This document shows, piece by piece, positions 48,101 through 64,000 of a stretch of DNA of 64,000 nucleotides (its first letter is position 1; the number at the start of each line of letters is the position of its first letter). The translations under genes were made by a program, and so were the position numbers. This DNA comes from Escherichia phage EdH4, in sequence record MK327930.1; one strand, given 5' to 3'. The notes beneath the pieces are model-generated. The model saw only the letters and a program-made list of their open reading frames with translations. It searched no databases and had not been told where the DNA came from.

Positions 48101-50799
48101 GGATTTACCCTTGCCTGACGCGGAGGGTAACCTGTAGTTTGGTTAAACCACAAATTACAAGAGTAATCCCTCATATAGTCATAATCAGAGTATTTGTTTG
48201 CATCCTCGTTCCAACACATGTTCAGGTTGGTACCGCCCATGCATACAATATATTCTGCGACATACTTATCACTTCTGGTAGGAATACCTATGAACCATCT
48301 GTTAACAGGTTCATCCCAAGCTGTGCGCTCATCTTTAACGCAGATAGCAATCCAGTCATGTGTTCCTGTTTTCTTGCACACATCCCGCTTCATACCATAG
48401 TAGAACTCTTTAGTATTCGGCTCAGGTGCATTTATCAGGTAACTCCATGCCTGATTTGCATAAGTTCCATTGGTGCGTGGATCATGATCAAAGGCATACA
48501 TGATGATCCTTTCCCCACCAAGATGTTCGCCAAGAGTAACTTTGACATTCACATCGCCGTAACCATTGCGAACAACATCCATATTGTCAATAGATATACC
48601 TCTGGGAGTGTAGGCAATCTTCAGTGAGTTATCCTCACTAGTGCCACCAAGTGTAATCCCTATGTTGTTTGTTGTCCCATCGGCATATCTTACTGTAGCT
48701 TCCCAGCGTATTCCGAAATATCCTACATCATGGCTGACAATTTTCAGTGTACGAGCGCCAGGGTGAGGTTTTCCAGGATCAGGCCAAGGGTCTGGGTGTT
48801 CGTGGACAGTCAACGACGTTCCGTTTTGCTCGTTAACCTGCAACATTTTACCACCTCTGCCGTTAGGGTTGAACTCCCATACGGCCTGTGTCTGCACCAA
48901 GTTGTTGTAGGTATTTCGTCTCTGATCATAAATCTCTTGGGTAACATCATAAGTGACTGATCCAGCATCCATTCTGTGGAGTCGGACCATATACGATGTA
49001 TCCCCTTCTACTGCAGGCTGAGTCCCATTCAGTCCGAAGTATACAGTATCGTTAACATGGAACTGCTTGTTTCTACCAACGGTATGCCACTTGCCGTTGG
49101 ACGGATACGCAGGAACTATGGTGTTCCAGTTCAAAGTCCTTGTTGTGTGAGTTCTGCCTGTGCCATGCTTGTCATGATAGGTTATTTTTACAGAGTACAG
49201 GCCACGTCTGTTAACATTTCTGTTATACTGGGTAACAACAACTTCATTGGCCCCGCCGTGGTTCCAGTTGGTGGAGAATTGGTAATTTGCATCTGTAACA
49301 ACCGTACCTGCAGCATTCACCAGTTCAATCTTGTCAATGATGAACGTAGCTCCCTCTGGCTGAGGCTTCAATTTCATCTTGACCGTGTCACCAATGTAGA
49401 TATTGCTAACACTGCTAACACCATTAACGTCGAAAATATCATCAACGCCCCAACTGTCTACTGGGACATTTTTATACCAATTCTCAGGAACCTCTGTGAA
49501 CCCCTGACTATTAAGTCTGCCGCCAAACAGGTTATTAGAGCCTGTAAAACTTCCCCTTGGGATACCTGACCACCAAAGTTTACCATTAACAACAGTAAAG
49601 GTCCCTAAGAAACCTTCTCTGTGGATGCCTTGGAAATAAACACTCTCTGTCCAGCTGACTGGCAGGCGTTGCTCAACATATTTAGCTGTAGCAAGAGCTT
49701 GATAGTGGATAAAATCGGCCCTAGGACTATTGTTTGCAGATTGTGCACCAATATCATTACATAAGTTGCGAGAGAACCCACGATACTGCTTAGTGCCATT
49801 ATTGAAGAAAATGCCACTTGTGCCGTACCCACGAGCCATCATTACCTCATGGGTGTAGGTGATATTCAGTTCCCGCCATGTATCATCTCCCCAAATGTTT
49901 TGACCATAAAATACGTTAACAAGCTGCTGGTCATCGGGTCTATGCATCCTCTGTGTAGCAATTACTGCCCCGTTAGGACCACACATAAACCCTTTCCACT
50001 CCTCATCTGCAGGAATGCCCCTCAAATCGTTACGAGTAATCTGCACAGGAGGCCAAACAAGGTCGTTTCTACTGTTATTTCTCAGAAAGTCGTATCCAGC
50101 AATCCAGAAACCCCTAGGACCACCGAAAATAACAGAGTTGTCATGCACCTCACAGTTGATGCTTGGGTTTTTCCAAGGGCCTGTTTCAGGATCTTCCGAT
50201 GTCTCACCAATCTTTACAGGGGTTGCATGCTGATTTTTATCTACATGCAAAGATCCGTAGGTGTTGTTACCAGATCCATACAGGTTAAGTATGCCAGCAC
50301 CTTCTGCCTCTGCAATAACCCAGACAGTGTTGTTAATACCGCCCATCACCTCAATAAGGCGTTCTGGGTGGGTGTCAAGGTGCAATCCTTTAACAATCTG
50401 CTCTGGGAGTGGTGTCCACTCGTTTACGCAAACATCATTACCGCCTGCCGCAGTGGATCCGATAAGACCTGCAGTGCAGCCGATGTAGAAAAACTGGTTA
50501 TCAAAAGTCCGGATCACAAACGCGCGGTCTGCTCTCCACACATGATCAACATTCCAGGCTGTTTCGCTCGGATAGTTTATAGGGCTACGATCCCCAGTGC
50601 GGCACTCTCCGAACTTGTTATAGCCAGTAATATTAAGCTGACCATCATCAAAAAGTATAGCTAAGCTATTTACATAGGATACTGTGTTGCTTGTACCATC
50701 ACTGTTGTCTATTGGGTATGACAGAACAGCAAGTTCCTTAATTCCACCCCTCTTATCGAGGAAATGACGACCAAGTTTTAGCAAAGGGATTGGAAGCAT
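45163..50799 (-). CDS. Very large tail fibre or host-range protein with C-terminal Ig-like (BIG2-type) domain
   Basis: 1878 aa; C-terminal NVSGIRKTWESSNTNIATVDAATGLVTFKATGNVTIKFVVTDDAGRKTSSTSFTV resembles a bacterial Ig-like fold; last gene of the tail module. Confidence 0.6.
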   Translation of the reverse strand: MLPIPLLKLGRHFLDKRGGIKELAVLSYPIDNSDGTSNTVSYVNSLAILFDDGQLNITGYNKFGECRTGDRSPINYPSETAWNVDHVWRADRAFVIRTFDNQFFYIGCTAGLIGSTAAGGNDVCVNEWTPLPEQIVKGLHLDTHPERLIEVMGGINNTVWVIAEAEGAGILNLYGSGNNTYGSLHVDKNQHATPVKIGETSEDPETGPWKNPSINCEVHDNSVIFGGPRGFWIAGYDFLRNNSRNDLVWPPVQITRNDLRGIPADEEWKGFMCGPNGAVIATQRMHRPDDQQLVNVFYGQNIWGDDTWRELNITYTHEVMMARGYGTSGIFFNNGTKQYRGFSRNLCNDIGAQSANNSPRADFIHYQALATAKYVEQRLPVSWTESVYFQGIHREGFLGTFTVVNGKLWWSGIPRGSFTGSNNLFGGRLNSQGFTEVPENWYKNVPVDSWGVDDIFDVNGVSSVSNIYIGDTVKMKLKPQPEGATFIIDKIELVNAAGTVVTDANYQFSTNWNHGGANEVVVTQYNRNVNRRGLYSVKITYHDKHGTGRTHTTRTLNWNTIVPAYPSNGKWHTVGRNKQFHVNDTVYFGLNGTQPAVEGDTSYMVRLHRMDAGSVTYDVTQEIYDQRRNTYNNLVQTQAVWEFNPNGRGGKMLQVNEQNGTSLTVHEHPDPWPDPGKPHPGARTLKIVSHDVGYFGIRWEATVRYADGTTNNIGITLGGTSEDNSLKIAYTPRGISIDNMDVVRNGYGDVNVKVTLGEHLGGERIIMYAFDHDPRTNGTYANQAWSYLINAPEPNTKEFYYGMKRDVCKKTGTHDWIAICVKDERTAWDEPVNRWFIGIPTRSDKYVAEYIVCMGGTNLNMCWNEDANKYSDYDYMRDYSCNLWFNQTTGYPPRQARVNPAIFTDTQVFLTKQANEVQTFKNNYDPNKWFYNCYGAYFWGPAELPDSGSCFEAATYGSDYIMGQVKKYKMIPGPETLGNAVDPYINFAALHANMDGARYPFDVPVANGYRRVVMIIKCDLIGKQVLAENGTSTHPFEVALHYQFADSPYAGDKRISDTDSKRCKKVLLGAGWWWYEFDLTDKFTDDTKTLTGIRLDLGENMHKAVCDGTYGDPTVYLKYVSLEHPEDAVIGPKLKLFGSWIAKDRIGMGKKVRGFLIDAGTEDMLVNAVWPTLEGTAYNNAARSINWFNIHRAMWTTNCYLWRELNDQAFGFSDGRRMAIICWTTLQRCYDHDYEIGGRAWKDIRDRVIYNFADDNGGGAYNFGTSRLIHLNGSSAYKKEGYSGSMIEWGLVKDARVLMGQQLAAAIGPSAVQSAKPAWFDIPLWSSGTPGAAAINPTTGDLEISWEDLKQVGGWDKTGYQVQWWRADGSLAADEFVKDNFYTMSSAKAQELFGQATPSTITMSMCCKDNRTGALGPRVAKVFSGIKWNLPVQSISWKQIGDNKLLVTPACQFNATLNVDPAVAANSAKASDFSVSNTAMADVRKIDTLNARITCKNTYGTFQIINNFTDADSKVVRTASQTLSLGTLAYAALITEQSATLQGGGVGKSITTPVWKPNEWVVFDLTVDFSSDNNWTWVRNCLSQLMGGPSAVSDSHDSTDPSVFQVGKTHPETGETLPDRKYALVCISYGKADVTFSGTHTYNGTYNFSRKYSLKAGNIVDEVGVLYNPGNGIGIVGGKLQMQEPSITPSNVSGIRKTWESSNTNIATVDAATGLVTFKATGNVTIKFVVTDDAGRKTSSTSFTVKQMAPQWRMWIGTATNGAYPNPAGTSGMKTFSTSKPMEYGSGPKVGQMVYFGAYIPEIIGLPRSQLQLLFGAGVDDLATFGYSDNIEAARSSGWVGFRMESGKEGRILGTASIGVMFPGDQQYRLEAYATFSR

Positions 50800-52880: not shown

Positions 52881-53927
52881 TTAAGCATAAGATATAGTGA
52901 TCCATTGACCATTTACAAGTTTTTGGATAGCACCTGTCCAGTAATCACCTTGATAAGGGTGTTTATAAGCGTAGTTGCCAGAGCACATCACATGTCCAGG
53001 GTAGACTCTTGACTCTCTGTAGGTGGTTTTGAAACGGTTTGCTATCCTTACATCGTCAACCCCTCTGCTGGGCATAGGGATAGTAAGGTTACCACTACTG
53101 TCTGCGCTGTTACCGTTTACCCTGCGGACCACGTTTCTTCCACCAACGGTTGCATATTGGCCTCTAACGGTTTCATCGTTACAATCAACTCTTCCACCTA
53201 TTTGAGCGCTTCCGCAGGATTGTTGTCCGTTAACAGTGGCTCTTGGTATCGTGACCGCATTGGCATTTGCAGAGGAACTTTTTGCATCGTTGCATTCAAG
53301 ATTTCCTTGGATAGCTAGTCTTGCACGGTTGGCAGTTATAGCATTGAGCTTCATAGCCGAAAACACAGGCTGCCCACCAGAAGGTTGAAATCTCCAACGG
53401 AACCCGTCTATTTGGTGAGAAGGATCATCAAGGTCTGTGCCGTCAGCACCACCGATGTTGTCCATAATCCAGAAATCCATCGTCGTCTTGTCTGGCGTTA
53501 TGGTGGTATATATTGCCGCACTGTCTGTTGACGCAGATGCAAACTCGATTCTTTGAAGACCTAAAGTTTGAGTCTGAGTCATTATGTCTCCGGACTTGTC
53601 AATATATAGATCGTCCATTTCTTCAGGCGAGTATACATTGAGAACTTGACGTGCAGCAGCTTTGTCTGGAACGTCTGCTAGATTATTAGTGACCCTTAAG
53701 AATCTATTATCCCATCCTGGGACAACATCTTCTGTTAAATGCTTTAACCACGCAGAAAGCATGTGAAGTTCAAAGTTAACAACTTCACATGCCACTCTTT
53801 GTGTCATATCCCAACCTTTCAATCTCTCTTCTTTTTTTGGTTGAGACTTATTCAACTCTCCCGTATTTTCAAGCACAACATCCTGATTGGCCCAAATATC
53901 AAGAGGGATAACTGGTTTAGTCATCAC
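52881..53927 (-). CDS. Receptor-binding tail fibre protein, paralogue B
   Basis: 348 aa; conserved N-terminus (KPVIPLDIWANQD) and C-terminus (QKLVNGQWITISYA) shared with CDS 54939..55979; centre divergent. Confidence 0.65.
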   Translation of the reverse strand: MMTKPVIPLDIWANQDVVLENTGELNKSQPKKEERLKGWDMTQRVACEVVNFELHMLSAWLKHLTEDVVPGWDNRFLRVTNNLADVPDKAAARQVLNVYSPEEMDDLYIDKSGDIMTQTQTLGLQRIEFASASTDSAAIYTTITPDKTTMDFWIMDNIGGADGTDLDDPSHQIDGFRWRFQPSGGQPVFSAMKLNAITANRARLAIQGNLECNDAKSSSANANAVTIPRATVNGQQSCGSAQIGGRVDCNDETVRGQYATVGGRNVVRRVNGNSADSSGNLTIPMPSRGVDDVRIANRFKTTYRESRVYPGHVMCSGNYAYKHPYQGDYWTGAIQKLVNGQWITISYA

Positions 53928-54339: not shown

Positions 54340-54924
54340 TTAGAGGGTAGGTCGCTCCGGGAAGAAAATGTCAGGGGCTTTAGATGTATCTATTTCAAGA
54401 AGTTTTACCCTGTACATTTTCAAATCTCTGATGTTACGTTTCTGGTCATCAGTAAGATCATATTCAAGGTCAATCATGTCTTGATAGGCACCAATTCTAG
54501 CAGTAGCCCAAGCAAGTTCTGTCTCTATGACACCCTCTGCCTGTTGAACAAAGAATTCATTGTCTGTGACAAATTCATCACCAACTAAACGCAAAGCGTC
54601 GTGGTGAAGCATAATGTTTTCTGGTACCTCTTCTTTTTTGGCGATAACCACACGAAGACCTGGAGCAGGCCATAAGGCATCAGGTTCTTCTGTAGATGTC
54701 TTAAGAATTCCCTTCTCGTCAACAAGTAGGAAGATACACCCTGGATTTTCTTGTCGTAATGTTCGTGACTGCACATACCAATCACCATCATCATTACGTA
54801 AAAAATACCCAGTGTATGCGGTGTAATCCTCGACCTCTTGAGGGGTCAGCTCCTTGGTTTCCTTATTGGAGTGGTATTCGCCAGATCCCGGTTGGTAAAG
54901 TTTAAACTCTTGAAGTATTTTCAT
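54340..54924 (-). CDS. Tail fibre assembly chaperone (Tfa-like)
   Basis: 194 aa; C-terminus YRVKLLEIDTSKAPDIFFPERP matches the lambda Tfa / P2 gpG C-terminal signature. Confidence 0.7.
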   Translation of the reverse strand: MKILQEFKLYQPGSGEYHSNKETKELTPQEVEDYTAYTGYFLRNDDGDWYVQSRTLRQENPGCIFLLVDEKGILKTSTEEPDALWPAPGLRVVIAKKEEVPENIMLHHDALRLVGDEFVTDNEFFVQQAEGVIETELAWATARIGAYQDMIDLEYDLTDDQKRNIRDLKMYRVKLLEIDTSKAPDIFFPERPTL

Positions 54925-54938
54925 GCTAGTCCTCCGAT

Positions 54939-55979
54939 CTATGCATAATTAACAGTGATCCATTGACCATTTACAAGTTTTTGTAAAGGTCCTGCCCAGT
55001 AGGTTGAACCACGCATCTCTTTTTTGTCACCGAAATGCCAGCCTGTGACAACGTATCCGTTGCGGATTGGGGATTCAGAAACGCCGTCCACAAGTCTTGC
55101 ACCGATTCTGATGTCTTGCACACCTGTCTGCGGGATAGTGATCGTTACATCACCGTTACCGTTAGCCGTCACTCCATTCACGGAGCGCACCACATTTCTG
55201 TTACCGACAACACAGTGCTGGCTTCTTACAACCATACTGTCACAACTTGCACCACCATTAACATATACTGACCCAGCCGTCAACTGACTGGCCACATTAC
55301 AGTTGGTGAATGTTGCTGTATTGCTGATAGTAAGGTTATTGCACCTCATGTTATCGACAACTTCAACATTGCCTACCACTTTCAACAGCGCACGATTAGC
55401 CGTGATCGCGTTAAGGTACATCAAAGTGAACTCTGGATTAATATCCGGCTGAGTTGGCTGGAATCTCCAACGAAACGCATCTACTGTAGATGTACCACCA
55501 TCATCAAACGACCCGGTATTATCACTTAGCCCAAAGTCGAGGGTTGTCTTATCTGGGCCAATAGTTGTCTCTATCCAAGCCTTATCTGTCTCGGCAGCTT
55601 TAAAGTTGATACGTTGCAACCCCAAGGGGCCTGTCATTGTATCACCTGTAACTTTTACATACCTGGCGTCTGCCTCTTCCTTAGTGATAATCCCAAGGTT
55701 TCTACGGGCAACAGGAATGTTCAAAAGATCGCTCAAGTTATTATCACGTACCAGATAACGGCCTTCTTGAGCTGGGATCTGCTCGTCAGCAATGTATTTT
55801 GCCCAAGTCCCGAGCATATTGAAAATATAGTTAAGTTCTTCACATGAGGGCTTTTGACCAAGATCCCAACCTTTTCTCCACAAATCATCAATCGGGCGTA
55901 GCCTGTTCTGTCTGTGGGTGTTAGGCAGAACCTGATCCTCCTCTGCCCAAATCTCTAATGGAAAACTAGGTTTTGACAT
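54939..55979 (-). CDS. Receptor-binding tail fibre protein, paralogue A
   Basis: 346 aa; C-terminus PLQKLVNGQWITVNYA resembles the P2 gpH tip; followed by Tfa. Confidence 0.65.
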   Translation of the reverse strand: MSKPSFPLEIWAEEDQVLPNTHRQNRLRPIDDLWRKGWDLGQKPSCEELNYIFNMLGTWAKYIADEQIPAQEGRYLVRDNNLSDLLNIPVARRNLGIITKEEADARYVKVTGDTMTGPLGLQRINFKAAETDKAWIETTIGPDKTTLDFGLSDNTGSFDDGGTSTVDAFRWRFQPTQPDINPEFTLMYLNAITANRALLKVVGNVEVVDNMRCNNLTISNTATFTNCNVASQLTAGSVYVNGGASCDSMVVRSQHCVVGNRNVVRSVNGVTANGNGDVTITIPQTGVQDIRIGARLVDGVSESPIRNGYVVTGWHFGDKKEMRGSTYWAGPLQKLVNGQWITVNYA

Positions 55980-55991
55980 TTTATCTCCTGA

Positions 55992-58064
55992 TTATGAGAA
56001 GTCTGGCGGGACAACATCTTCTACATACCCTTTCAGAGCAACCTGCCCCATATGAAGCACGGTAGAATCTCTAGCGGTAACAGTGATGCTGTCAGACATT
56101 ACTTGCGGGTATGCCCACACATACTGTTTTACCTCAGGATATCTATACTCTATAGTTGCCATGTTTCCGCAAATACATCTCCATAAAAATTCTTGGTAAT
56201 TCCTGGTTGGGTCGTAACCATATACCGGAGCAAGCTCTTTACTAGGAACGAACCCTGCAAGGTATTGTATTTCAGACGGTTGCCAACCTAACTTAACGAT
56301 AGGTATGTTTACAGACTCTTTTGCCTTTTCAATACCTCCCTGCATCACCCAATCGTAGCACTCGGTGCAGAAGAAATCAAGAGCACCTGCTTCCTTTTTA
56401 TATTGGTCAGCAAGGTTAAGCTTTTGCGTAAGCTCGGTTTCCATAATGGTTGGGAAAAACAGCAGAGCTGTCATCTGAGCTGATGCAGCGTGTGCCTTTA
56501 TTGCCTTTGAAATAGCCGCAATACGAGCGCCAAGCTTACCACGACAAAATGCTACATACTTATCGTAAACACCGCCAGTTTTAGGATCGTCAATAGTCCC
56601 AATATCTAATGCATACTCGCCTGTCTCATCATAAAACGCCTGTTTTGTAGGGTAATCATAAATACAAGGTCTACGAGTATCGGTATTGTACCACCACCAC
56701 GGTTCACCAACCTGCATAATCACTGGCAGGTTGTTTCTCATAGCGGCTGATGCAAAATTCTTAAATACTGCAGTAAGGAAATTCATACCCTCTTCAATGG
56801 TTGGAGACAGGAGGTAGCTACAAGGTGTATACCCTGTTTTAGCGTAGTTATCGTTCCAGTCTCTTTGGGTCCATTCCAACGGGCAGGCATCGCTGAAAAG
56901 CTCAAAACTTACAGATTGCATAACGTCGAAGTTATGTCGTTTGGCATTGTACATAAAATCATCATGCCATTTATAAGCTGCAGCGTTTAGCGCTCCTGTT
57001 CTGTTTATAGACCATTGGGTTCCTGACCATGTGTAGTCATAATAATGACTCATACCAACATAATGGTTTATGGTTCCGGTATAGCCCAGACGCTTGATAT
57101 TGTTCAACACCCTTAAAGGAGACACGTTCCACATATCGTCATATGCGGTGCAGATCCCAACATCGTGCTCTCTCACCTGGATATTGTTAAGTTGCATCAT
57201 TTTCCAGCCTGTGTCTGGCTGAAGCAGATCTAGGCGCAACTCACACTCTACATTTTCCGTTCTCGGGTCTGTGCTATTACTTACCCAGTCTTTAGGCATA
57301 AGCGGTATTAAAATCCTTCTCACCTGCCGAGGATCAACACCCATCATGTTGTTGTTCTGATCCATCCCGACGCAGTCCTCAAAATCAATATGAATTTCTG
57401 CAACATTCTTATCCTCTGAGATGCTGACAGCATATTGAGCTAAAGGAACATAGATGATTGTGCCATCAACAAGGTCTACAGTCATAATCATCTTTTCAGG
57501 AGTGGAGAAGTTGCTGGCGTTGGTTATTGACATTCTGAACCAAAGCTTGGTGTTTCTCATCTCATAGTGATCATCAAACCCAATACCGAAATGGTCATAC
57601 TTGTCAACTGTTTCCCAAATGCACCCAGCCATACCTCCATATGTTCTTGACACTAAACGGTTAATACAACAGTTGTTATCTGCAACAATACAGGTACTTT
57701 CAGTCTGCTGAGTGGTTGTAACCCAATATCTTGGGTGAAACATTCTCTCCTCAACAGTATCCCAAGATATCCTGTCAAGATTCTCATCTGAAACTATTGT
57801 ACATTTCGCCCTTTGTGTTCCAATCATCACCCCTTGAGATTTTGATGAAAACTCCATAAAGAAGCTTCTTGGCAACCTGTTGGGTAATTTGTCAACAATT
57901 TCCACGGGGATCTCAATACTGGTTGCCCCAACTGGGATAGTTACATCGCCCTCAACATGATCATAATCCCTACCAGGAACGGCAGTATCCTGAACTGTTC
58001 GGTAATGAAACCGTGCAGCCATTGTAGAGTAATCACGGTAAGGTTTAAAAACAGCTGTTGCCAT
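55992..58064 (-). CDS. Tail-associated structural protein (possible carbohydrate-active domain)
   Basis: 690 aa; N-terminal beta-sandwich-like segment then a large Trp/Tyr-rich domain; no confident family. Confidence 0.55.
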   Translation of the reverse strand: MATAVFKPYRDYSTMAARFHYRTVQDTAVPGRDYDHVEGDVTIPVGATSIEIPVEIVDKLPNRLPRSFFMEFSSKSQGVMIGTQRAKCTIVSDENLDRISWDTVEERMFHPRYWVTTTQQTESTCIVADNNCCINRLVSRTYGGMAGCIWETVDKYDHFGIGFDDHYEMRNTKLWFRMSITNASNFSTPEKMIMTVDLVDGTIIYVPLAQYAVSISEDKNVAEIHIDFEDCVGMDQNNNMMGVDPRQVRRILIPLMPKDWVSNSTDPRTENVECELRLDLLQPDTGWKMMQLNNIQVREHDVGICTAYDDMWNVSPLRVLNNIKRLGYTGTINHYVGMSHYYDYTWSGTQWSINRTGALNAAAYKWHDDFMYNAKRHNFDVMQSVSFELFSDACPLEWTQRDWNDNYAKTGYTPCSYLLSPTIEEGMNFLTAVFKNFASAAMRNNLPVIMQVGEPWWWYNTDTRRPCIYDYPTKQAFYDETGEYALDIGTIDDPKTGGVYDKYVAFCRGKLGARIAAISKAIKAHAASAQMTALLFFPTIMETELTQKLNLADQYKKEAGALDFFCTECYDWVMQGGIEKAKESVNIPIVKLGWQPSEIQYLAGFVPSKELAPVYGYDPTRNYQEFLWRCICGNMATIEYRYPEVKQYVWAYPQVMSDSITVTARDSTVLHMGQVALKGYVEDVVPPDFS

Positions 58065-58750
58065 TAACCCTCCTGTCTAGTTGCGTTTACTGTAATACTT
58101 TCACAATAAATGGTTGTGGTGTCCCAATCAGGTCTTACGTCAGGAACATACAGCAAAGTAGCCAGCCCACCAACTCCAAACTGGTTTTCTTCCCATACTG
58201 ATCCGAAGCCAAGAGCTGTAGAGTCCCCTTCAAAACCAAAAGCTTGCCCTTGCGATTCTGTAAGACGCAAATGACAAGGCAATGGTAGCATATCTAAGAT
58301 CTGATCGATAGACTGCAATATGTCAAAGCAAGTTTTTCTAATATTTATGTCAAACCTGAAGTTGTCTCCTTTCCACGTATCGAAATTGTCTCTTCCGAAC
58401 AATTGTCGCAAGGTGGAGATGACATCTTCGCGAGTCCCGCCCCTTGATGCTGCGGCCTGCTGAATAATTAGTGTGGCACGAAAATCAGCATCTGAAAGTC
58501 CATTCCTAAGAATACCAAGTTGATTACCAACTTCGTCAAGGTATCTTCCGCTGGCATTGTTAAGCAATCTTCCTTCAGCCAAACCTACCAGCATCTTATC
58601 AACATCCTCCAACCTTTTAAGGTATACGGTTAAGAATGTGACTAAATTAACCTTCTCAGCCAGAAAATCTCCAGGCAGGTAGTCAAGACCTCCCTGAACA
58701 AAATCTGGCAGAGTGTGGATGTGGTTAACATCCGACTTAATCTCTGCCAT
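58064..58750 (-). CDS. Putative baseplate or tail-fibre-associated protein
   Basis: 228 aa; position equivalent to P2 gpI after a baseplate-J-like gene; sequence similarity not confirmed. Confidence 0.5.
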   Translation of the reverse strand: MAEIKSDVNHIHTLPDFVQGGLDYLPGDFLAEKVNLVTFLTVYLKRLEDVDKMLVGLAEGRLLNNASGRYLDEVGNQLGILRNGLSDADFRATLIIQQAAASRGGTREDVISTLRQLFGRDNFDTWKGDNFRFDINIRKTCFDILQSIDQILDMLPLPCHLRLTESQGQAFGFEGDSTALGFGSVWEENQFGVGGLATLLYVPDVRPDWDTTTIYCESITVNATRQEG

Positions 58751-58761
58751 ATCTCGCCGCC

Positions 58762-60252
58762 TTAAATAGTTTGTTGGAAAGTTATATTACTTTCGTCGAG
58801 GTCAAACACCTCAGTCATGTTCGCAACAATATCGTTTGTAGTGTAAGCTTCATCAGAAGCTCCTACGGATTTAACTTGAATTACCAGTCTATTAAATCTG
58901 CCTATTGACACAGCAGCAGATGCAGCACCTACCAATTGGATATTATACAACGTATCTGCAACATCCAGTCCGTTAACAACCTGCAAAAGAGCCTCTATAA
59001 TGGCATCTTTTTCGGTTGTGGAAAGCGCAGCACCGGAGTAGGTAATTCTCATATCCAGGCGGTAGGTATTTGCCTTGGAGTAATAAATTCTTTCAGTCTG
59101 ACCGTCAGATGTAGTGACATCGTAGAAAATATTACCATAAGTCCTGTTCGTACAGGCTATAGTTTGGTAAAGTGCCTGGCAGATATCCTCTGTTGCACCA
59201 CCAAACACCACCACTTGAAACTTATAAGGTGGTATACCTTTCGCATCCGTTTTATCGGTGTTGTTAGAGAACACTCTTACTTTCTCAACACCTTTCACCT
59301 CGCTTACAGCGCTAAGAATTGCAGGACGGGTAGCCTTAGATGTTAACTGTTTTGTGCTGGAAGCTCTTAAGCGATACTCTGAGTCTTTCTCAACATCCCT
59401 GCCCTCATTGAATCTTTCTCTGTTGGTAAGCTTGATAAATCCACTGGGAGTAGGTGACATTGTTGTCACGGTTTCTGCCTCTCTTGACAGCTCACCAGCC
59501 TCGTTAGCGATAACATCCAAGGTGATAGTTCTTTCCCCTACAATCGGGGATACTCTGAAATCTACCCTGCTATTAAGTCCAACTTGATCAAGATTTGAAT
59601 TGTACCCTATCCACAACGTTCCTGTCAACATATCGATCTGAATCAAATCGTCGTTCAACAGAGTTGTATTATCGACAATGAATTGCTTAATCTCTCCGTA
59701 AAAGCTTGGCAGATCAGAAGAGTCCAGAGCCTTATCTGTTAAAACCAGACTTTTTGTTTTGATACTTCCATCTGTCTGGTTGGTAATTTGAAAGTTGTAT
59801 TTACCAATCCTTAGGTCTGGAGCATTTATTCTGTGAGCAATAAGATTCCCTGCTACTTGCACATCATTGCTAAGAACAAAGTTGCCACTATCCAACGTAT
59901 AAGTTTTGGAATCGTAAATCATATTGTACGGCACAGTTGTGTTGATCGTCAACTGGCAGGTACCTGATGATTTAGAACGGCCTCTTCGGTAAATACCTCG
60001 TCTTCCAAGAAGTTCGTCTAGGTAAATACCTTCTGCCCCATACAGCGTTTGTGATGCGTACACAGATGCTGCCATAAGAATAAGTTGATACTCTCGCTCG
60101 TTGAAAATAGTGGTCAGCTTATCTGCAACGGAGTTACTTTGTACGTTGAAGTTTTCGCCAAAAGCACGGATCAGGCTTTGCTTAGTTTCAACGATTAGGT
60201 CATTTAGGGTTGGTATAACGAAACCAGCCTCTGTCAATCCATACTTAGCCAC
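58762..60252 (-). CDS. Baseplate J-like protein
   Basis: 496 aa; block VEKDSEYRLRASSTKQLTSKATRPAILSAVSEVKGVEKVRV parallels recalled P2 gpJ ESDTDYRLRIQQAF...GRVADISV. Confidence 0.55.
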   Translation of the reverse strand: MAKYGLTEAGFVIPTLNDLIVETKQSLIRAFGENFNVQSNSVADKLTTIFNEREYQLILMAASVYASQTLYGAEGIYLDELLGRRGIYRRGRSKSSGTCQLTINTTVPYNMIYDSKTYTLDSGNFVLSNDVQVAGNLIAHRINAPDLRIGKYNFQITNQTDGSIKTKSLVLTDKALDSSDLPSFYGEIKQFIVDNTTLLNDDLIQIDMLTGTLWIGYNSNLDQVGLNSRVDFRVSPIVGERTITLDVIANEAGELSREAETVTTMSPTPSGFIKLTNRERFNEGRDVEKDSEYRLRASSTKQLTSKATRPAILSAVSEVKGVEKVRVFSNNTDKTDAKGIPPYKFQVVVFGGATEDICQALYQTIACTNRTYGNIFYDVTTSDGQTERIYYSKANTYRLDMRITYSGAALSTTEKDAIIEALLQVVNGLDVADTLYNIQLVGAASAAVSIGRFNRLVIQVKSVGASDEAYTTNDIVANMTEVFDLDESNITFQQTI

Positions 60253-60322
60253 GTCACTCCTCCGGTATGAAAATCTCTACAAGGTATTTTACCAAATTTT
60301 GTAACAATAGTCAATCTGAGCA

Positions 60323-60348
60323 TAAAAATAAACCCCGCCGAAGCGGGG
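60323..60348 (-). terminator. Rho-independent terminator after the J-like gene
   Basis: Hairpin ccccgccgaagcgggg with T-run on minus. Confidence 0.6.
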
Positions 60349-60357
60349 CTTTAAAGA

Positions 60358-63300
60358 TTAGTCGTGAGACTCGTTCCAAGGTCCCTGGAAGCTTGAGTTA
60401 GAACGACTAACGATCACAGTGGGACAGGAGATTGTGACACCTGTCACGCTCGACGTTGACCACGGTGTGTAAATCTCGATAACAATGTCTATAGTTTGTT
60501 CACCCAGACCTGTTATCCCTACCGCACACATGCCGTTGTTGTCGTTAAAATACTTCTTGCCAGCAAGGATCTGATGACCAGCTATCCATGCATTCAGTTG
60601 GGAGCTGGCAAGAGTACCATTCAGTTTAAAGAAGAATGTTACGTTCTTACCCTGACCTGAAACGTTATCTACGTATCTCCACCTCCAACGGCAAACCCTT
60701 TGCTGGGAGTTATATACTGGAGCACAATCTCCGTAAGTCCTGTGTGCAACAATCGCACCTTCGAACTGGTTAGCACGGATAACAGAAGCTTCTACACGAC
60801 CACGGAAGGTACCTCCGGTTGCATCTATGGTGCCTCTAAAGCTACCATTATTGGCATAAACATCACCACGGAAGGTACCACTGGTGGCGTTAACTGCCCC
60901 TGTGAAGTTACCAGAACTGGCGTTGATGTTGCCTTTCACCCACACATCCATAAATTGGGCGTGCCCGTTCTTGTTAATATACCAACCGTATTTATGGTAC
61001 CCGTTGCCATCGTAGTTGTTTGACGAAATTTCTTGTGCGATCTTGGCAGAGGAGATCGTGCCATTCTCTATAAAAGCGTCTTTCAAGAACGCTTGGTTGT
61101 TCTTGATTGCGAAAGCAAGGGTTGCTGTTCCATTTCCAGGGTTGTATACCGCAAAATTGTTTGCACTAACCATGAAGTAGGATTGAACTTGTCCTCCAGA
61201 CCCCTCCATGCCCAGCTGGATACCTGCAACATACTTATTCCCTGCAGAGTCTACCTGAATCTTAGCTCCCCACTGAGCATCTATTTTACCCTCAAGTGTT
61301 GTTACAGCTTTAGAGGTATTAGATACTGTAGCCCTGAGCTCATCAATATTACCCATTTCGTCAACAATTTCTTGTTTTGCAGAGGTAAGTTCTTGACGGA
61401 TCGCTGCGGCTGTATTATTAACAAGATCAACTGTTGTACTATTAGTTTCTTGAATAGATGCTTGCAGATTGGCAACCTCTTTCTGCACATCATCTTCCAG
61501 CTTGGTGATCTTCCCTGTAGCTGCCACCAGATCCTGCTTAATAGCTTCCGTTGTCTTATTTAGCAGATCGGTTGTTGCCTTGTTGGTTTCTTGAATAGAG
61601 GAGTTAAGTTTGCTCTCAGTATTCTTCAACTCTTCCCGCAGAGTACCTTGAGTTGCAGTTATTTGCTCACTCAATGCTTGAGTTTTACGATTAACAAGAT
61701 CAACGGTTGATCTATTTGTTGTCTCGATTAGTGACCCAAGCCTACCAGACTCTGCTGCAAGTTTATCGTCAAAGGATTGCTGAGCTGCTACCAGCTTACT
61801 GTTAAGGGCAGAAATTTCTCCATTAACCCCTGTAAATTTTTCTGTCGTCTCTCTGACAACACCCTCTATTGTATCCCCAAGCTCTTCAAAAATGCTAGTA
61901 ACACGGTCATTGACTGCACCAACATTTTTATCCATTTCCTTGACTGCATTATCAAGATTGGCGGTAAGCTCTTTATAAGTCTCTGTCTTTTTGAACTCAG
62001 CATCAATCTGTGGCATAAGATCTTCTATGGATGTGTAACAGCGGGCTGCACACTCCACAAAAGCAGATGAACCAAAAGCATTTGTTGTCCTGATATACCA
62101 GTAATAAATCTTATCGTTCTGCAGACCTTCAGATGTCCAAGTTGAACCAACACCCATACGAGTGGCTTTTGAAGTAACGGTTGCATCACTGGTATCTGGC
62201 AATCTTGTCATCCCAGATGTCCAAAAGTCGTACTGGGTGCTTACACTTGCTAAATCCCTACTATGCGGAATCAAGGTGATAGCAAAGTATCCTTGCTTAA
62301 CCTCTACAGAAACCGGAGCTTCAGGTGCCTGAATGTTAAACTCACAGTACGCTTCTGGAGATACACCACCTTTATAAGATGTTGCAACCACGGTTGCTGT
62401 GTATGACCCTTTGGTCAAACCTTCTACTCTGACAAACTGCTCAACTGTCTGTGCTGTCCAAACAATCTCTCCGTTCTTTCTTACCTGCACAATATTTTGA
62501 GCGTAAGTCCCAACGTTGTCCCAAGCCAAAACACCGTGAGTTACTTCCCCAGCTTGGAGAACGGAGTATCTGAAGTTTTGCGGCTGAGCTACACCGGACG
62601 GGGATATCGGAATATCTACATCACCGGAATCCGGAAGTTGCCCTGTGGCATCATTCCACTCTTTAGCATCTTGACGAAGTTTTACCTTGACACCGCCCTT
62701 TTTGGTGAACTCCCATTCAAGAACCCTCATTTCTTGGCCCACTATACCAATACTTGGGAGGTCCATTGTAACGTAACGACCAGGTTTAAATTTGAAACCT
62801 CGCATATTGCAGGTGACTTCAATAATCCTGCCAGCTCTGGCACGTCTTAGGAAGATTGCAGAAACACGCTGAGCTTGATAAGGACTGGTAACAAAGCGAT
62901 AGTCTATATCGATTATCTTTCTTTCTCCATCCTTCTCTATCCACTCTGGGACAAACACTGATGGGAAATCTGTTTCAGAATACCCTTTGGTAGGACTGGT
63001 GAATCTGCCAGTTATTGTGTTGGATCTTTTGTCAAATGAGGCTTCCGGATAGATCTTGACCTCACCACAGACACAATCCTCACTCAGTGTCATTGTTGCC
63101 GGGCCATAGTATGCACCAACCAGCAAACCATACTTACCAGCTACATAGCTGAGATCTGCACCACAAGCTTTCAGCATTTCTGCCATAATGCTTGCTGGGG
63201 CCTCATCCATGTCAAACTCACCGTTAATGGTGTAACGTCGCTCACTGGTTCCGTCAGCGTTTTTTACCGCCTCGTCGCATATGTTGGCAGCCTCCTTGAA

Positions 63301-63957
63301 GGACTCCCAGTTAATGGTTTCGTCAGGACATTTAAGGTACGTTCTTAAATAGTCTAGGATCACCAAGGCCGCGTTATTGGTATACACCTCTTTACTGATA
63401 CGAGGATCATAGCATTTTTTACCAACCTTGACAAGTGTAACGTTTGGCAACCCAAAAGGAAACTTGTTAGGGTCAAACCTGAAGCTGGCACGTAGCCAAC
63501 TGATCCCTCTACCTATCATGTCGGGTGACCATGATGGGCAGTGTGCACCCATGAAAGGATCAGATGTTTTTCTGTCGTTATGTAGCTCCCACGATACCAG
63601 ATCTCCATACGAGGAAATAGGATTACCGTCGATAAGTATATCTTCTATACCTTCCAGAGGGTGATTGGCAAGAACAATAGCACAATGGAGGGTTCTGTCG
63701 CTATCCTGCTCCAAAAACGCAAGCAATCCGGATGTGCGTGTCTTCCCATACACTACAGAGCAGGGTGCAGCAGAAGATCTGAGAAGCTTTTGTCTATCTT
63801 GCTGACTTCTGTAAGATTTGTTGCCCTCAAAAATCTTATCCAGAGTTCTGGTGGTAACAGTGTTCAGGCTGTCAGCCAGAGCTGCCTTGGATGCGTTCCA
63901 GTCATAACTTGAAGATCTTGCAGAAGCAACGATGTTATCAATCATTGCAATTGGCAT
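60358..63957 (-). CDS. Central tail fibre / host-specificity protein, lambda gpJ-like
   Basis: 1199 aa; VEVKQGYFAITLIPH, IYYWYIRTTNAFGSSAFVE, NKYVAGIQLGMEGS and C-terminal fibre repeats align to recalled lambda J blocks. Confidence 0.85.
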   Translation of the reverse strand: MPIAMIDNIVASARSSSYDWNASKAALADSLNTVTTRTLDKIFEGNKSYRSQQDRQKLLRSSAAPCSVVYGKTRTSGLLAFLEQDSDRTLHCAIVLANHPLEGIEDILIDGNPISSYGDLVSWELHNDRKTSDPFMGAHCPSWSPDMIGRGISWLRASFRFDPNKFPFGLPNVTLVKVGKKCYDPRISKEVYTNNAALVILDYLRTYLKCPDETINWESFKEAANICDEAVKNADGTSERRYTINGEFDMDEAPASIMAEMLKACGADLSYVAGKYGLLVGAYYGPATMTLSEDCVCGEVKIYPEASFDKRSNTITGRFTSPTKGYSETDFPSVFVPEWIEKDGERKIIDIDYRFVTSPYQAQRVSAIFLRRARAGRIIEVTCNMRGFKFKPGRYVTMDLPSIGIVGQEMRVLEWEFTKKGGVKVKLRQDAKEWNDATGQLPDSGDVDIPISPSGVAQPQNFRYSVLQAGEVTHGVLAWDNVGTYAQNIVQVRKNGEIVWTAQTVEQFVRVEGLTKGSYTATVVATSYKGGVSPEAYCEFNIQAPEAPVSVEVKQGYFAITLIPHSRDLASVSTQYDFWTSGMTRLPDTSDATVTSKATRMGVGSTWTSEGLQNDKIYYWYIRTTNAFGSSAFVECAARCYTSIEDLMPQIDAEFKKTETYKELTANLDNAVKEMDKNVGAVNDRVTSIFEELGDTIEGVVRETTEKFTGVNGEISALNSKLVAAQQSFDDKLAAESGRLGSLIETTNRSTVDLVNRKTQALSEQITATQGTLREELKNTESKLNSSIQETNKATTDLLNKTTEAIKQDLVAATGKITKLEDDVQKEVANLQASIQETNSTTVDLVNNTAAAIRQELTSAKQEIVDEMGNIDELRATVSNTSKAVTTLEGKIDAQWGAKIQVDSAGNKYVAGIQLGMEGSGGQVQSYFMVSANNFAVYNPGNGTATLAFAIKNNQAFLKDAFIENGTISSAKIAQEISSNNYDGNGYHKYGWYINKNGHAQFMDVWVKGNINASSGNFTGAVNATSGTFRGDVYANNGSFRGTIDATGGTFRGRVEASVIRANQFEGAIVAHRTYGDCAPVYNSQQRVCRWRWRYVDNVSGQGKNVTFFFKLNGTLASSQLNAWIAGHQILAGKKYFNDNNGMCAVGITGLGEQTIDIVIEIYTPWSTSSVTGVTISCPTVIVSRSNSSFQGPWNESHD
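61320..62010 (-). repeat. Internal tandem repeats encoding a coiled-coil stalk inside the J-like gene
   Basis: Repeated peptide IQETN(K/S)(A/T)TTDL(L/V)N(K/N)T(T/A)(E/A)AI(K/R)Q(D/E)L and repeated nucleotide blocks (ttggtttcttgaatag...). Confidence 0.55.
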
Positions 63958-64000
63958 TAATACCTCCAGACATCAACAACTATAGAATCTTTCATGTCGA
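63957..64000 (-). CDS. 3' end of the upstream tail gene (partial, truncated by the window edge)
   Basis: Open frame ending ...DMKDSIVVDVWRY with TAATG overlap onto the J start. Confidence 0.4.
   Translation of the reverse strand, partial: DMKDSIVVDVWRY

What the first reader, a model, noticed from the sequence alone, without database searches (positions are those of the whole stretch)
58064..63957. Mosaic tail tip: lambda gpJ-like central fibre followed by a P2-like baseplate-J, fibre and chaperone module
The 1199-aa protein aligns to recalled lambda gpJ blocks, which is a siphovirus hallmark. It is followed directly by a protein with a baseplate-J-like signature (EKDSEYRLRASS..., a wedge protein typical of myovirus baseplates), then a 228-aa protein, fibres with P2 gpH-like tips and a P2 gpG/lambda Tfa-type chaperone. 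The order mirrors the P2 J-I-H-G module, grafted downstream of a lambda-type tip.
Basis: partly seen in the sequence, partly recalled or inferred. Interest (0 to 1): 0.5.

Follow-up and report, generated by a model that had tools for sequence, protein, structure and literature searches.

The report
Siphovirus tail-tip gene inside myovirus baseplate
This stretch of an rV5-like coliphage with a contractile tail encodes its two ordinary baseplate wedge proteins, preceded by a complete lambda-J-type tail-tip protein borrowed from non-contractile-tailed phages, whose place in the virion is still unknown.

Summary
The three ORFs sit exactly at the stated coordinates, on the minus strand: 1199, 496 and 228 aa. 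The 1199-aa protein is a full gpJ-type protein, not just a fibre. It has a tail-tip hub fold, two Ig/FN3 domains, a coiled coil, the Phage_Tail_Tip domain and a C-terminal beta domain. The 496- and 228-aa proteins are the two baseplate wedge proteins, with solved homologues in phages phiTE and phi92.

The window is 98-99% identical to rV5-like myoviruses (Vequintavirus). These have a sheath and their own tube initiator, hub, spike and sheath initiator.

The foreign element is the J gene. It is the last gene of a four-gene siphovirus tail-tip cassette: Dit-like, tail protein, DUF6950, J. The cassette is collinear with Nonagvirus SE1 (39-54% identity) and a Proteus prophage. It is absent from related myoviruses and lies in the variable fibre slot upstream of the wedge genes.

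The J protein is under strong purifying selection and was detected in rV5 virions, but it has not been located in cryo-EM maps. It is most likely an accessory receptor-binding appendage rather than the tail tip. The components are already annotated; the architecture is the open question.

The parts
63957..64000 (-). 3' end (last 14 codons, ...DMKDSIVVDVWRY*) of the DUF6950 gene. This is the third gene of the siphovirus tip cassette. Its stop overlaps the J start (TAATG).
   Evidence: identical to the C-terminus of Murica gp037. Pfam DUF6950 7.1e-33.
60358..63957 (-). 1199-aa gpJ-type protein (= rV5 gp37 / Murica gp036).
62668..63786 (-). Hub region of the J-type protein (residues ~58-430), with the tail-tip hub fold of lambda gpJ and T5 pb3. 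Residues 1-57 are predicted disordered or helical.
   Evidence: AF2 mean pLDDT 78.5. Foldseek: 8iyk_F 3.5e-36, 8hqz_A 9.9e-30, 7zqp_b rmsd 4.2 A over 454 columns. 57-58% identity to Queuovirinae J proteins. Homologues carry Phage-tail_3. The protein's own Pfam hit is sub-threshold, E 0.085.
61993..62595 (-). Two Ig/FN3-like domains (residues ~455-655).
   Evidence: Pfam Ig_J 3.3e-5 (24.4 bits, below the 29-bit curated cutoff) and Ig_J_second 1.7e-30. Lambda gpJ 666-832 aligns. Beta-sandwiches in the AF2 model.
61318..61992 (-). Coiled-coil spacer (residues ~656-880) with ~45-aa protein repeats (TNxxTxDLxN at 752, 796, 843). This is the only allele-variable part, 80 aa shorter than in rV5 gp37.
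   Evidence: (helix-rich matches).
60850..61317 (-). Phage_Tail_Tip / central-fibre domain (residues ~881-1036).
   Evidence: Pfam 3.3e-38. Lambda gpJ 843-991 aligns.
60361..60849 (-). C-terminal all-beta domain (residues ~1037-1199), the presumed receptor-binding domain. Few relatives are known.
   Evidence: AF2 confidence is low and the fold search is inconclusive. Its function is inferred only from its position.
60330..60351 (-). Intrinsic-terminator-like hairpin directly after the J stop codon.
   Evidence: A terminator is annotated at the same place in Murica.
60286..60314 (-). Sigma-70-like promoter (TTGACT-17-TAAAAT, with an extended TG) upstream of the wedge operon.
   Evidence: This is a consensus match only.
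58762..60252 (-). Baseplate wedge 2 protein (equivalent to T4 gp6 / P2 gpJ / Mu gp47), two copies per wedge.
   Evidence: Pfam Baseplate_J 3.5e-9. PHROG 6. phiTE Wedge 2 9cuy_T 4.7e-159 and phi92 gp145 2.4e-56.
58064..58750 (-). Baseplate wedge 1 protein (equivalent in role to T4 gp7 / P2 gpI), one copy per wedge. It is the docking site of the short tail fibre.
   Evidence: phiTE Wedge 1 9mjn_dh 6.1e-67 and phi92 gp146 2.6e-23. PHROG 4056. Homologues hit DUF2612. phiTE structure paper.
55992..58064 (-). 690-aa Calx-beta + NCTSP_N + TIM-barrel protein, a homologue of podovirus N4 gp64. It is inserted between wedge 1 and the short tail fibre.
   Evidence: Absent at this position in Iguana and ZCKP1.
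54939..55979 (-). Short tail fibre 1 (346 aa). Its N-terminus resembles the wedge-1-binding N-terminus of the phiTE short tail fibre, and its tip resembles Mu S.
   Evidence: 9cuy_c 1.4e-19; 5yvq_A 1.7e-6. (P2 gpH tip, E 0.001).
54340..54924 (-). Tail fibre assembly chaperone (lambda Tfa / Mu U type).
   Evidence: Pfam Caudo_TAP 9e-12. Lambda Tfa 35% identity, E 6e-10.
52881..53927 (-). Short tail fibre 2 (348 aa), a paralogue of fibre 1.
   Evidence: 43% identity, E 7e-95.

Best explanation
The window comes from an rV5-like contractile-tailed phage (Vequintavirus).

Shown for the wedge genes: the 496-aa and 228-aa proteins are homologues of the two baseplate wedge proteins.

By homology to the solved phiTE and phi92 baseplates:
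- Two copies of wedge 2 and one of wedge 1 form a heterotrimer, a helical-bundle core plus a trifurcation unit. Six of these make the ring around the hub.
- The bundle contacts the sheath initiator.
- Wedge 1 holds the Mu-S-type short tail fibre, which is folded with the Tfa-type chaperone.
- Rearrangement of the fibres and the baseplate periphery triggers sheath contraction.

Shown for the 1199-aa gene: it is the terminal gene of a separately transcribed, four-gene siphovirus tail-tip cassette (Dit-like, tail protein, DUF6950, J). The cassette is shared with Queuovirinae-type and PY54-type siphoviruses. It sits in the variable fibre slot between the sheath initiator and wedge 2. The protein keeps the complete gpJ architecture and is under strong purifying selection.

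Inferred for its role: the tail axis is presumably already occupied by the phage's own hub and spike. So the J trimer, probably together with its three cassette partners, would assemble as a closed tip-like knob. That knob would be mounted on the baseplate periphery or on another fibre. It would project a coiled-coil stalk of allele-dependent length ending in a conserved beta-domain that binds a host surface structure. In short, a tail tip re-used as an accessory receptor-binding fibre.
For: Identity of the phage:
- 98-99% nucleotide identity over 8 kb to 100+ rV5-like genomes.
- Tail sheath, tube and tape measure are annotated in Murica.
- Tube initiator, spacer, hub, spike and sheath initiator are homologous to solved phiTE and phi92 chains.

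Wedge proteins:
- Sequence matches to solved chains.
- The structure papers give the 2:1 heterotrimer and the fibre docking sites.

J protein is a complete gpJ-type protein:
- Pfam and PDB sequence matches.
- AF2 model of residues 1-660, mean pLDDT 78.5.
- All top Foldseek hits are siphovirus tip hubs: lambda, T5/DT57C, T1, JBD30, Chi, RcGTA.

Cassette:
- The Proteus prophage shows TMP -> 198 aa -> 193 aa -> DUF6950 -> J.
- Pairwise identities of 32-36% with E 1e-18 to 7e-36.
- Nonagvirus SE1 is collinear, at 39-54% identity.
- The hub is 57-58% identical to Queuovirinae J proteins.
- The cassette is absent from Iguana and ZCKP1, although both keep wedge2-wedge1-fibre-chaperone.
- A terminator and a promoter-like site lie between J and wedge 2.

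Functional in rV5-like phages:
- dN/dS is 0.02-0.06 for the hub, against 0.02 for wedge 2.
- gp37 peptides, including hub peptides, were found in rV5 virions.
- Between alleles only the coiled coil varies.
Against: - No structure or labelling places the J protein in the virion. Cryo-EM of two Vequintaviruses located only three other fibres.
- The virion signal for gp37 is weak: 4 peptides, 5 spectra. gp38-40 were not among the proteins the rV5 paper names as detected.
- How a Dit/J complex would attach to a wedge or a fibre without a tail tube is unknown.
- The three partner genes lie outside the window. They are inferred from near-identical genomes; only 43 nt of the DUF6950 gene are in the window.
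- The receptor-binding role of the C-terminal domain is inferred from its position alone. The model was of low confidence and the fold search inconclusive.
Confidence: 0.68

Rival explanations
1. One reading: the J-type protein forms the real tip of the tail, as in lambda. A P2-like wedge/fibre module was then grafted behind it, giving a chimeric tail tip.
For: - The protein has the full gpJ hub fold.
- In relatives it is preceded by Dit-like, tail-protein and DUF6950 partners, as in siphoviruses.
Against: - The phage has a sheath and a complete myovirus central complex: tube initiator, spacer, hub, iron-tipped-spike homologue and sheath initiator.
- In the solved phiTE and phi92 baseplates that complex occupies the axis.
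- The tape measure gene is ~13 kb away and is followed by the myovirus hub genes, not by the cassette.
- Related myoviruses lack the cassette but keep the wedge-fibre-chaperone order.
Confidence: 0.07
2. The J complex is a virion appendage, but not at the baseplate. It could sit at the neck or collar, or at the far end of another long fibre, as a distal adhesin module.
For: - It was not found among the three fibres seen near the baseplate in Bas49 and Bas54.
- In those maps an unassigned density is attached to the head of the TC8 fibre.
- Its abundance in the proteome is low.
Against: - The gene lies inside the baseplate/fibre cluster, immediately upstream of the wedge operon.
- There is no positive evidence for a neck location.
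- The distal-end variant overlaps with the best explanation.
Confidence: 0.17
3. The cassette is a passenger, a recently acquired siphovirus remnant with no structural role in the myovirus particle.
For: - It has its own terminator-bounded transcription unit.
- It is absent from sister genera.
- Only a few peptides were detected.
Against: - It is intact in more than 100 genomes, with at least 97.7% protein identity in the hub.
- dN/dS of 0.02-0.06 equals that of the essential wedge gene.
- Hub peptides are present in purified rV5 virions.
- The start of J is translationally coupled to the DUF6950 stop.
Confidence: 0.05

Closest known systems
Escherichia phage rV5 gp37 (with gp38-gp40) and its orthologues in Vequintavirus (Murica gp036-039, CarlMeissner, nimi)
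   Same: - 83% identical overall to rV5 gp37, and about 98-99% outside the coiled coil.
- Same gene order, and 98-99% nucleotide identity across the locus.
   Different: - This allele has a coiled coil 80 aa shorter.
- The role of gp37 in the rV5 virion has not been determined.
Central tail fibre J of Queuovirinae siphoviruses (Nonagvirus SE1, 9g-like phages, Seuratvirus), of phage PY54 and of enterobacterial prophages
   Same: - Hub 57-58% identical.
- The whole Dit / tail protein / DUF6950 / J cassette is collinear, at 39-54% identity.
   Different: - There the cassette follows the tape measure gene and forms the tip of a non-contractile tail. Here it sits in a myovirus that has its own hub.
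- The SE1 protein is 879 aa. A ~95-residue stretch of this protein's coiled coil (about 718-811) has no counterpart in the tblastn alignment to SE1.
Lambda gpJ (PDB 8iyk, 8k35)
   Same: - Hub fold (Foldseek 3.5e-36).
- Ig_J_second and Phage_Tail_Tip domains at 30-31% identity.
- Same domain order.
   Different: - The hub is shorter, about 430 residues before the Ig domains against about 660 in lambda. It is undetectable by BLASTP and sub-threshold for Pfam Phage-tail_3.
- A ~220-aa coiled coil is inserted.
- The C-terminal domain is not demonstrably related to lambda's.
- The partner proteins are of a different type (DUF6950 rather than gpK/gpI).
phiTE Wedge 2 / Wedge 1 and phi92 gp145 / gp146 (PDB 9cuy, 9mjn, 21vq)
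   Same: Homologous along their full length (E 4.7e-159 and 6.1e-67 to phiTE; 2.4e-56 and 2.6e-23 to phi92). They form the canonical 2:1 wedge heterotrimer.
   Different: Neither the phiTE nor the phi92 structure paper describes a J-type tip protein in its baseplate. A different fibre gene lies upstream of wedge 2: in phi92 this is the endosialidase gp143, by gene numbering.
P2 J-I-H-G module
   Same: - Same functional order: wedge 2, wedge 1, fibre, chaperone.
- Baseplate_J membership.
- Weak similarity at the fibre tip.
   Different: - No detectable similarity to P2 gpI or to P2 gpG.
- A 690-aa gene of the N4 gp64 type interrupts the order.
- The fibre is duplicated.

Membership tests
Lambda gpJ / tail-tip hub-fibre proteins (COG4733) | N-terminal tail-tip hub domains (Pfam Phage-tail_3; gp27-like fold) | tested here: met
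   Its own Pfam hit is sub-threshold (E 0.085, 13.2 bits against a cutoff of 23). However, homologues at 40-58% identity carry PF13550. The AF2 model (mean pLDDT 78.5) matches lambda gpJ, T5 pb3 and the T1, JBD30, Chi and GTA hubs at E 1e-14 to 1e-36.
Lambda gpJ / tail-tip hub-fibre proteins (COG4733) | Ig_J / Ig_J_second domains followed by the Phage_Tail_Tip (DUF1983) domain | tested here: met
   Ig_J_second 1.7e-30, Phage_Tail_Tip 3.3e-38 and Ig_J 3.3e-5 (the last below its curated cutoff). Lambda gpJ 8iyk_J E 2.4e-27.
Lambda gpJ / tail-tip hub-fibre proteins (COG4733) | Encoded after the tape measure gene, with Dit and tip-assembly partners | tested here: inconclusive
   The partners are present in the right order in near-identical genomes. 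But the cassette is ~13 kb from the tape measure gene, which is followed by the myovirus hub genes.
Lambda gpJ / tail-tip hub-fibre proteins (COG4733) | Forms the closed tip of a non-contractile tail tube | not testable with these tools
   The phage has a contractile tail and its own hub and spike. The protein's location in the virion is unknown.
Baseplate_J (T4 gp6 / P2 gpJ / Mu gp47) | Profile match above the curated threshold | tested here: met
   PF04865 E 3.5e-9, 36.8 bits against a cutoff of 21.1. PHROG 6, baseplate wedge subunit, 1.2e-44.
Baseplate_J (T4 gp6 / P2 gpJ / Mu gp47) | Two copies per wedge heterotrimer in a contractile-tail baseplate | not testable with these tools
   Shown for the homologues phiTE Wedge 2 (E 4.7e-159) and phi92 gp145. 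Inferred here.
P2 gpI (Pfam Tail_P2_I) | Sequence or profile similarity to P2 gpI | tested here: not met
   No Tail_P2_I hit even at E<=10. BLASTP to P2 gpI E 0.19. hhalign probability 0.4%. 14 of 23 homologues hit DUF2612 instead.
P2 gpI (Pfam Tail_P2_I) | Functional position: the single-copy third subunit of the wedge heterotrimer, encoded directly after the Baseplate_J gene | tested here: met
   The gene lies immediately downstream of wedge 2. It is homologous to phiTE Wedge 1 (6.1e-67) and phi92 gp146 (2.6e-23), which occupy that position in solved baseplates.
Caudo_TAP chaperones (lambda Tfa / P2 gpG / Mu U) | Profile match, and a gene placed directly after the fibre gene | tested here: met
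   PF02413 9e-12, 45.7 bits against a cutoff of 22.1. 35% identity to lambda Tfa, E 6e-10. No BLASTP similarity to P2 gpG itself.
P2 gpH / Mu S-type fibre tip | C-terminal tip similarity | tested here: inconclusive
   Mu S 5yvq_A E 1.7e-6 over residues 286-343. P2 gpH 28% over 64 columns, E 0.001 in a single comparison. No similarity to lambda Stf.

The most novel reading that the evidence does not exclude
The four cassette proteins build an autonomous siphovirus-type tip complex: a Dit ring, the tail protein and a J trimer. A contractile-tailed phage mounts this complex, in several copies, on its baseplate periphery or on the head of another fibre, where it serves as a receptor-binding organelle. 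It could be the unassigned density seen attached to the TC8 fibre in the Bas49 and Bas54 maps. This would be a case of a tail-tip hub re-used as a fibre anchor, showing that whole tip modules can move between tail types.
Probability: 0.35. Interest if true: 0.7.

Novelty: new variant of a known kind. Interest (0 to 1): 0.45.

Why it matters
rV5-like phages are used therapeutically and have a broad host range. They carry about nine fibre-like proteins, and only three have been placed in the virion.

Recognising that one of them is a complete siphovirus tip complex, with its assembly partners, has three consequences:
- It gives a concrete, testable model for an unplaced component of the adsorption apparatus.
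- It explains why fibre-prediction pipelines fail on this protein's N-terminus.
- It documents exchange of a whole tail-tip module across the sipho/myovirus divide.

For annotation, labels such as "central tail fiber J" and "distal tail protein" in these myovirus genomes should not be read as statements about position.

Tried and rejected
- BLASTP of the whole protein against lambda gpJ found no N-terminal similarity. Pfam Phage-tail_3 was sub-threshold. The hub question was settled by homologues and by fold instead.
- A PDB sequence search with the three cassette partners concatenated found nothing.
- AF2 of the C-terminal 180 residues, from a 6-sequence alignment, gave pLDDT 54.8. Foldseek then gave only generic beta-sandwich or CBM35 hits above E 1e-3. 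Lambda and A8 gpJ receptor-binding domains appeared only at E ~0.014-0.019. This is inconclusive.
- hhalign of the wedge 1 family against P2 gpI was not significant.
- No similarity between the short tail fibre and lambda Stf.
- No DNA tandem repeats underlie the coiled-coil repeats.
- Literature searches for any discussion of the J cassette in Vequintavirus found none beyond annotation-level notes. The phi92 paper of Schwarzer et al. 2012 is not held.
- I first assumed the 1199-aa protein lacked hub domains and was only a J-like fibre. I dropped this.

Full report
**What is at the coordinates**

All genes in this part of the window are on the minus strand. ORFs of 1199 aa (63957..60358), 496 aa (60252..58762) and 228 aa (58750..58064) match the finding exactly. 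Downstream come a 690-aa ORF, a 346-aa fibre, a 194-aa chaperone, a 348-aa fibre paralogue, a 581-aa fibre and an 1878-aa Ig-like protein.

The stretch 55992-63957 is 98-99% identical at the nucleotide level to more than 100 rV5-like phages of the genus Vequintavirus, including CarlMeissner, nimi and Murica. These are myoviruses of about 137 kb.

In the annotated Murica genome the locus continues beyond the window end. In order, it holds the tail sheath, tube, chaperones, tape measure, then a central baseplate set. A PDB sequence search identifies that set as homologues of the solved phiTE and phi92 tube initiator, spacer/plug, hub, spike and sheath initiator (Pfam and PHROG).

**The wedge genes**

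The 496-aa protein passes Pfam Baseplate_J (E 3.5e-9, above the curated cutoff). The protein is homologous along its length to phiTE Wedge 2 (9cuy_T, E 4.7e-159) and phi92 gp145 (E 2.4e-56).

The 228-aa protein has no Pfam hit of its own. It matches phiTE Wedge 1 (E 6.1e-67) and phi92 gp146 (E 2.6e-23).

The phiTE and phi92 cryo-EM papers describe the arrangement (PMC11972413; PMC13450770):
- Two wedge 2 subunits and one wedge 1 subunit form the canonical helical-bundle and trifurcation heterotrimer.
- Six heterotrimers form the ring around the hub.
- The bundle contacts the sheath initiator.
- In phiTE the short tail fibre docks on wedge 1 and the long fibre on wedge 2A plus the sheath initiator.

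The 228-aa protein therefore plays the role of P2 gpI or T4 gp7. It is not a detectable member of the P2 gpI sequence family:
- no Tail_P2_I hit, even at E<=10;
- BLASTP to P2 gpI, E 0.19;
- hhalign probability 0.4%;
- 14 of 23 close homologues hit DUF2612 instead.

**The 1199-aa protein**

Sequence similarity to lambda gpJ is confined to two blocks. Residues 497-665 align to gpJ 666-832 (the Ig domains). Residues 876-1036 align to gpJ 843-991 (the Phage_Tail_Tip domain). A helix-rich insertion of about 220 residues lies between them.

I first took the N-terminus for something else, but three results show it is a genuine tip hub:
1. Proteins 40-58% identical over residues ~48-479 are "tail tip protein J-related" proteins that carry Pfam Phage-tail_3. 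The query's own hit is sub-threshold (E 0.085).
2. In the phage collection, the nearest relatives outside Vequintavirus are central tail fibre J proteins of siphoviruses. Nonagvirus, Seuratvirus and 9g-like phages are at 57-58% identity. PY54 and Serratia, Vibrio, Pseudomonas and Acinetobacter phages follow.
3. An AlphaFold2 model of residues 1-660 has mean pLDDT 78.5, with residues 1-57 and 435-454 disordered. Its top Foldseek matches in the PDB are lambda gpJ (3.5e-36), DT57C and T5 pb3, the T1, JBD30 and Chi tips, and the RcGTA megatron.

The architecture is therefore: hub (~58-430), two Ig/FN3 domains (~455-655), coiled coil (~656-880), tail-tip domain (~881-1036) and a C-terminal beta domain (~1037-1199).

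The C-terminal domain has very few relatives. Its model was of low confidence and the fold search was uninformative.

**It is the last gene of a siphovirus cassette**

In a Proteus mirabilis HK97-like prophage the gene order is tape measure, 198 aa, 193 aa, a moron, DUF6950, then J.

Murica has 196-aa (PHROG "distal tail protein"), 183-aa (PHROG "tail protein") and 141-aa (DUF6950) genes directly upstream of the J gene. They are 36%, 34% and 32% identical to their prophage counterparts (E 4e-27, 7e-36 and 1e-18). Nonagvirus SE1 shows the same four genes in the same order at 39-54% identity.

The last 43 nt of the window encode the C-terminus of the DUF6950 protein, and its stop overlaps the J start. 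The rV5 GenBank record already notes that ORFs 37-40 resemble proteins of siphovirus PY54.

**The cassette is the insertion, not the wedge module**

Related myoviruses with homologous wedge proteins share a backbone. These are Klebsiella phage Iguana (wedge 2 60% identical) and Phapecoctavirus ZCKP1 (32%). The backbone is hub, spike, sheath initiator, variable fibres, wedge 2, wedge 1, short fibre, chaperone. Neither has any of the four cassette genes.

The lambda-type element sits in the variable fibre slot.

The strongest terminator-like hairpin in the region follows the J stop codon (60351-60330). A promoter-like site (60314-60286) then precedes wedge 2. Murica also has an annotated terminator upstream of the cassette. 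The cassette is thus its own transcription unit.

**Is it functional, and where is it?**

Between the window, Murica and rV5, dN/dS is 0.02-0.06 for the hub and Ig part and 0.07-0.08 for the C-terminal part. For wedge 2 it is 0.02.

rV5 gp37, a 1279-aa allele, was detected in purified virions with four peptides, two of them from the hub. That paper also noted COG4733 and a gp27-like HHpred match.

The allele here differs from rV5 gp37 only in the coiled coil, in both length and sequence. The hub and the C-terminal domain are about 98-99% identical. This points to variable reach with a conserved target.

Cryo-EM of two Vequintaviruses located three fibres near the baseplate. It did not locate this protein, and it left a density on the TC8 fibre head unassigned (PMC12143355). 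The same paper groups a Vequintavirinae coiled-coil fibre, probably this protein's orthologue, with a Tempevirinae fibre in its class TC5. It notes an N-terminal region "common in central tail fibers".

**Most likely mechanism**

Shown: the wedge assignments, the complete gpJ architecture, the cassette and its siphovirus origin, purifying selection, and presence in virions (for rV5 gp37).

Inferred: the tail axis is presumably occupied by the phage's own hub and spike. So the J trimer, with its cassette partners, would form a tip-like knob attached peripherally or to another fibre, acting as an accessory receptor-binding appendage.

Rivals are an axial position (about 7%), a non-baseplate or distal position (about 17%) and a non-functional passenger (about 5%).

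- The 690-aa protein is not a fibre. It combines Calx-beta, NCTSP_N and a TIM barrel. It is homologous to N4 gp64, the small subunit of N4's non-contractile sheath (PMC13434306).
- The 346-aa fibre has an N-terminus like that of the phiTE short tail fibre and a Mu S-like tip. Similarity to the P2 gpH tip is only weak.
- The chaperone is of the Tfa type.

**Novelty**

The sequence and its annotations are known, and the wedge module is ordinary. What appears undiscussed in the literature I could search is that Vequintavirus carries a complete siphovirus tip cassette in addition to its own hub. I rate it a new variant of a known kind, of moderate interest.

Noticed in passing
window 55992-58064 (-): A 690-aa protein sits between wedge 1 and the short tail fibre. 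It combines Calx-beta, NCTSP_N and TIM-barrel_NCTSP domains (Pfam 4.1e-80). It is homologous to podovirus N4 gp64, the small subunit of N4's receptor-binding non-contractile sheath (9lc0_M, E 2.2e-24). It is absent at this position in Iguana and ZCKP1. Together with the N4-like deacetylase fibre reported for these phages, this suggests a second module shared with N4.
   Followed up: partly
window 61318-61992 (-): The coiled coil of the J-type protein is the only part that differs from rV5 gp37. It is 80 aa shorter, with ~45-aa protein repeats (TNxxTxDLxN) and no DNA-level tandem repeat. Fibre length seems to vary while the tip is conserved.
   Followed up: partly
window 52881-53927 and 54939-55979 (-): There are two paralogous short tail fibres (43% identity) but only one Tfa-type chaperone, placed between them. 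Sister genera have a single copy.
   Followed up: partly
GenBank records matched by window 55992-63957: About 18 records named 'Campylobacter phage' (C12, C14, D#, C15 and others; host given as C. jejuni) are 98-99% identical to these coliphages. The host label looks doubtful.
   Followed up: no
window 45163-50799 (-): An 1878-aa ORF ends the fibre cluster. Its Murica orthologue is annotated as an Ig-like domain-containing protein with an invasin/intimin cell-adhesion domain. It corresponds to rV5 gp27, detected at low level in virions. A block of genes on the opposite strand follows at ~38-45 kb, with a GC-skew switch.
   Followed up: no
L006 13045-13881 (Klebsiella phage Iguana): In Iguana the gene directly upstream of wedge 2 is a 278-aa 'tail protein' of unknown relation. 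It may occupy the slot that holds the J cassette in Vequintavirus.
   Followed up: no
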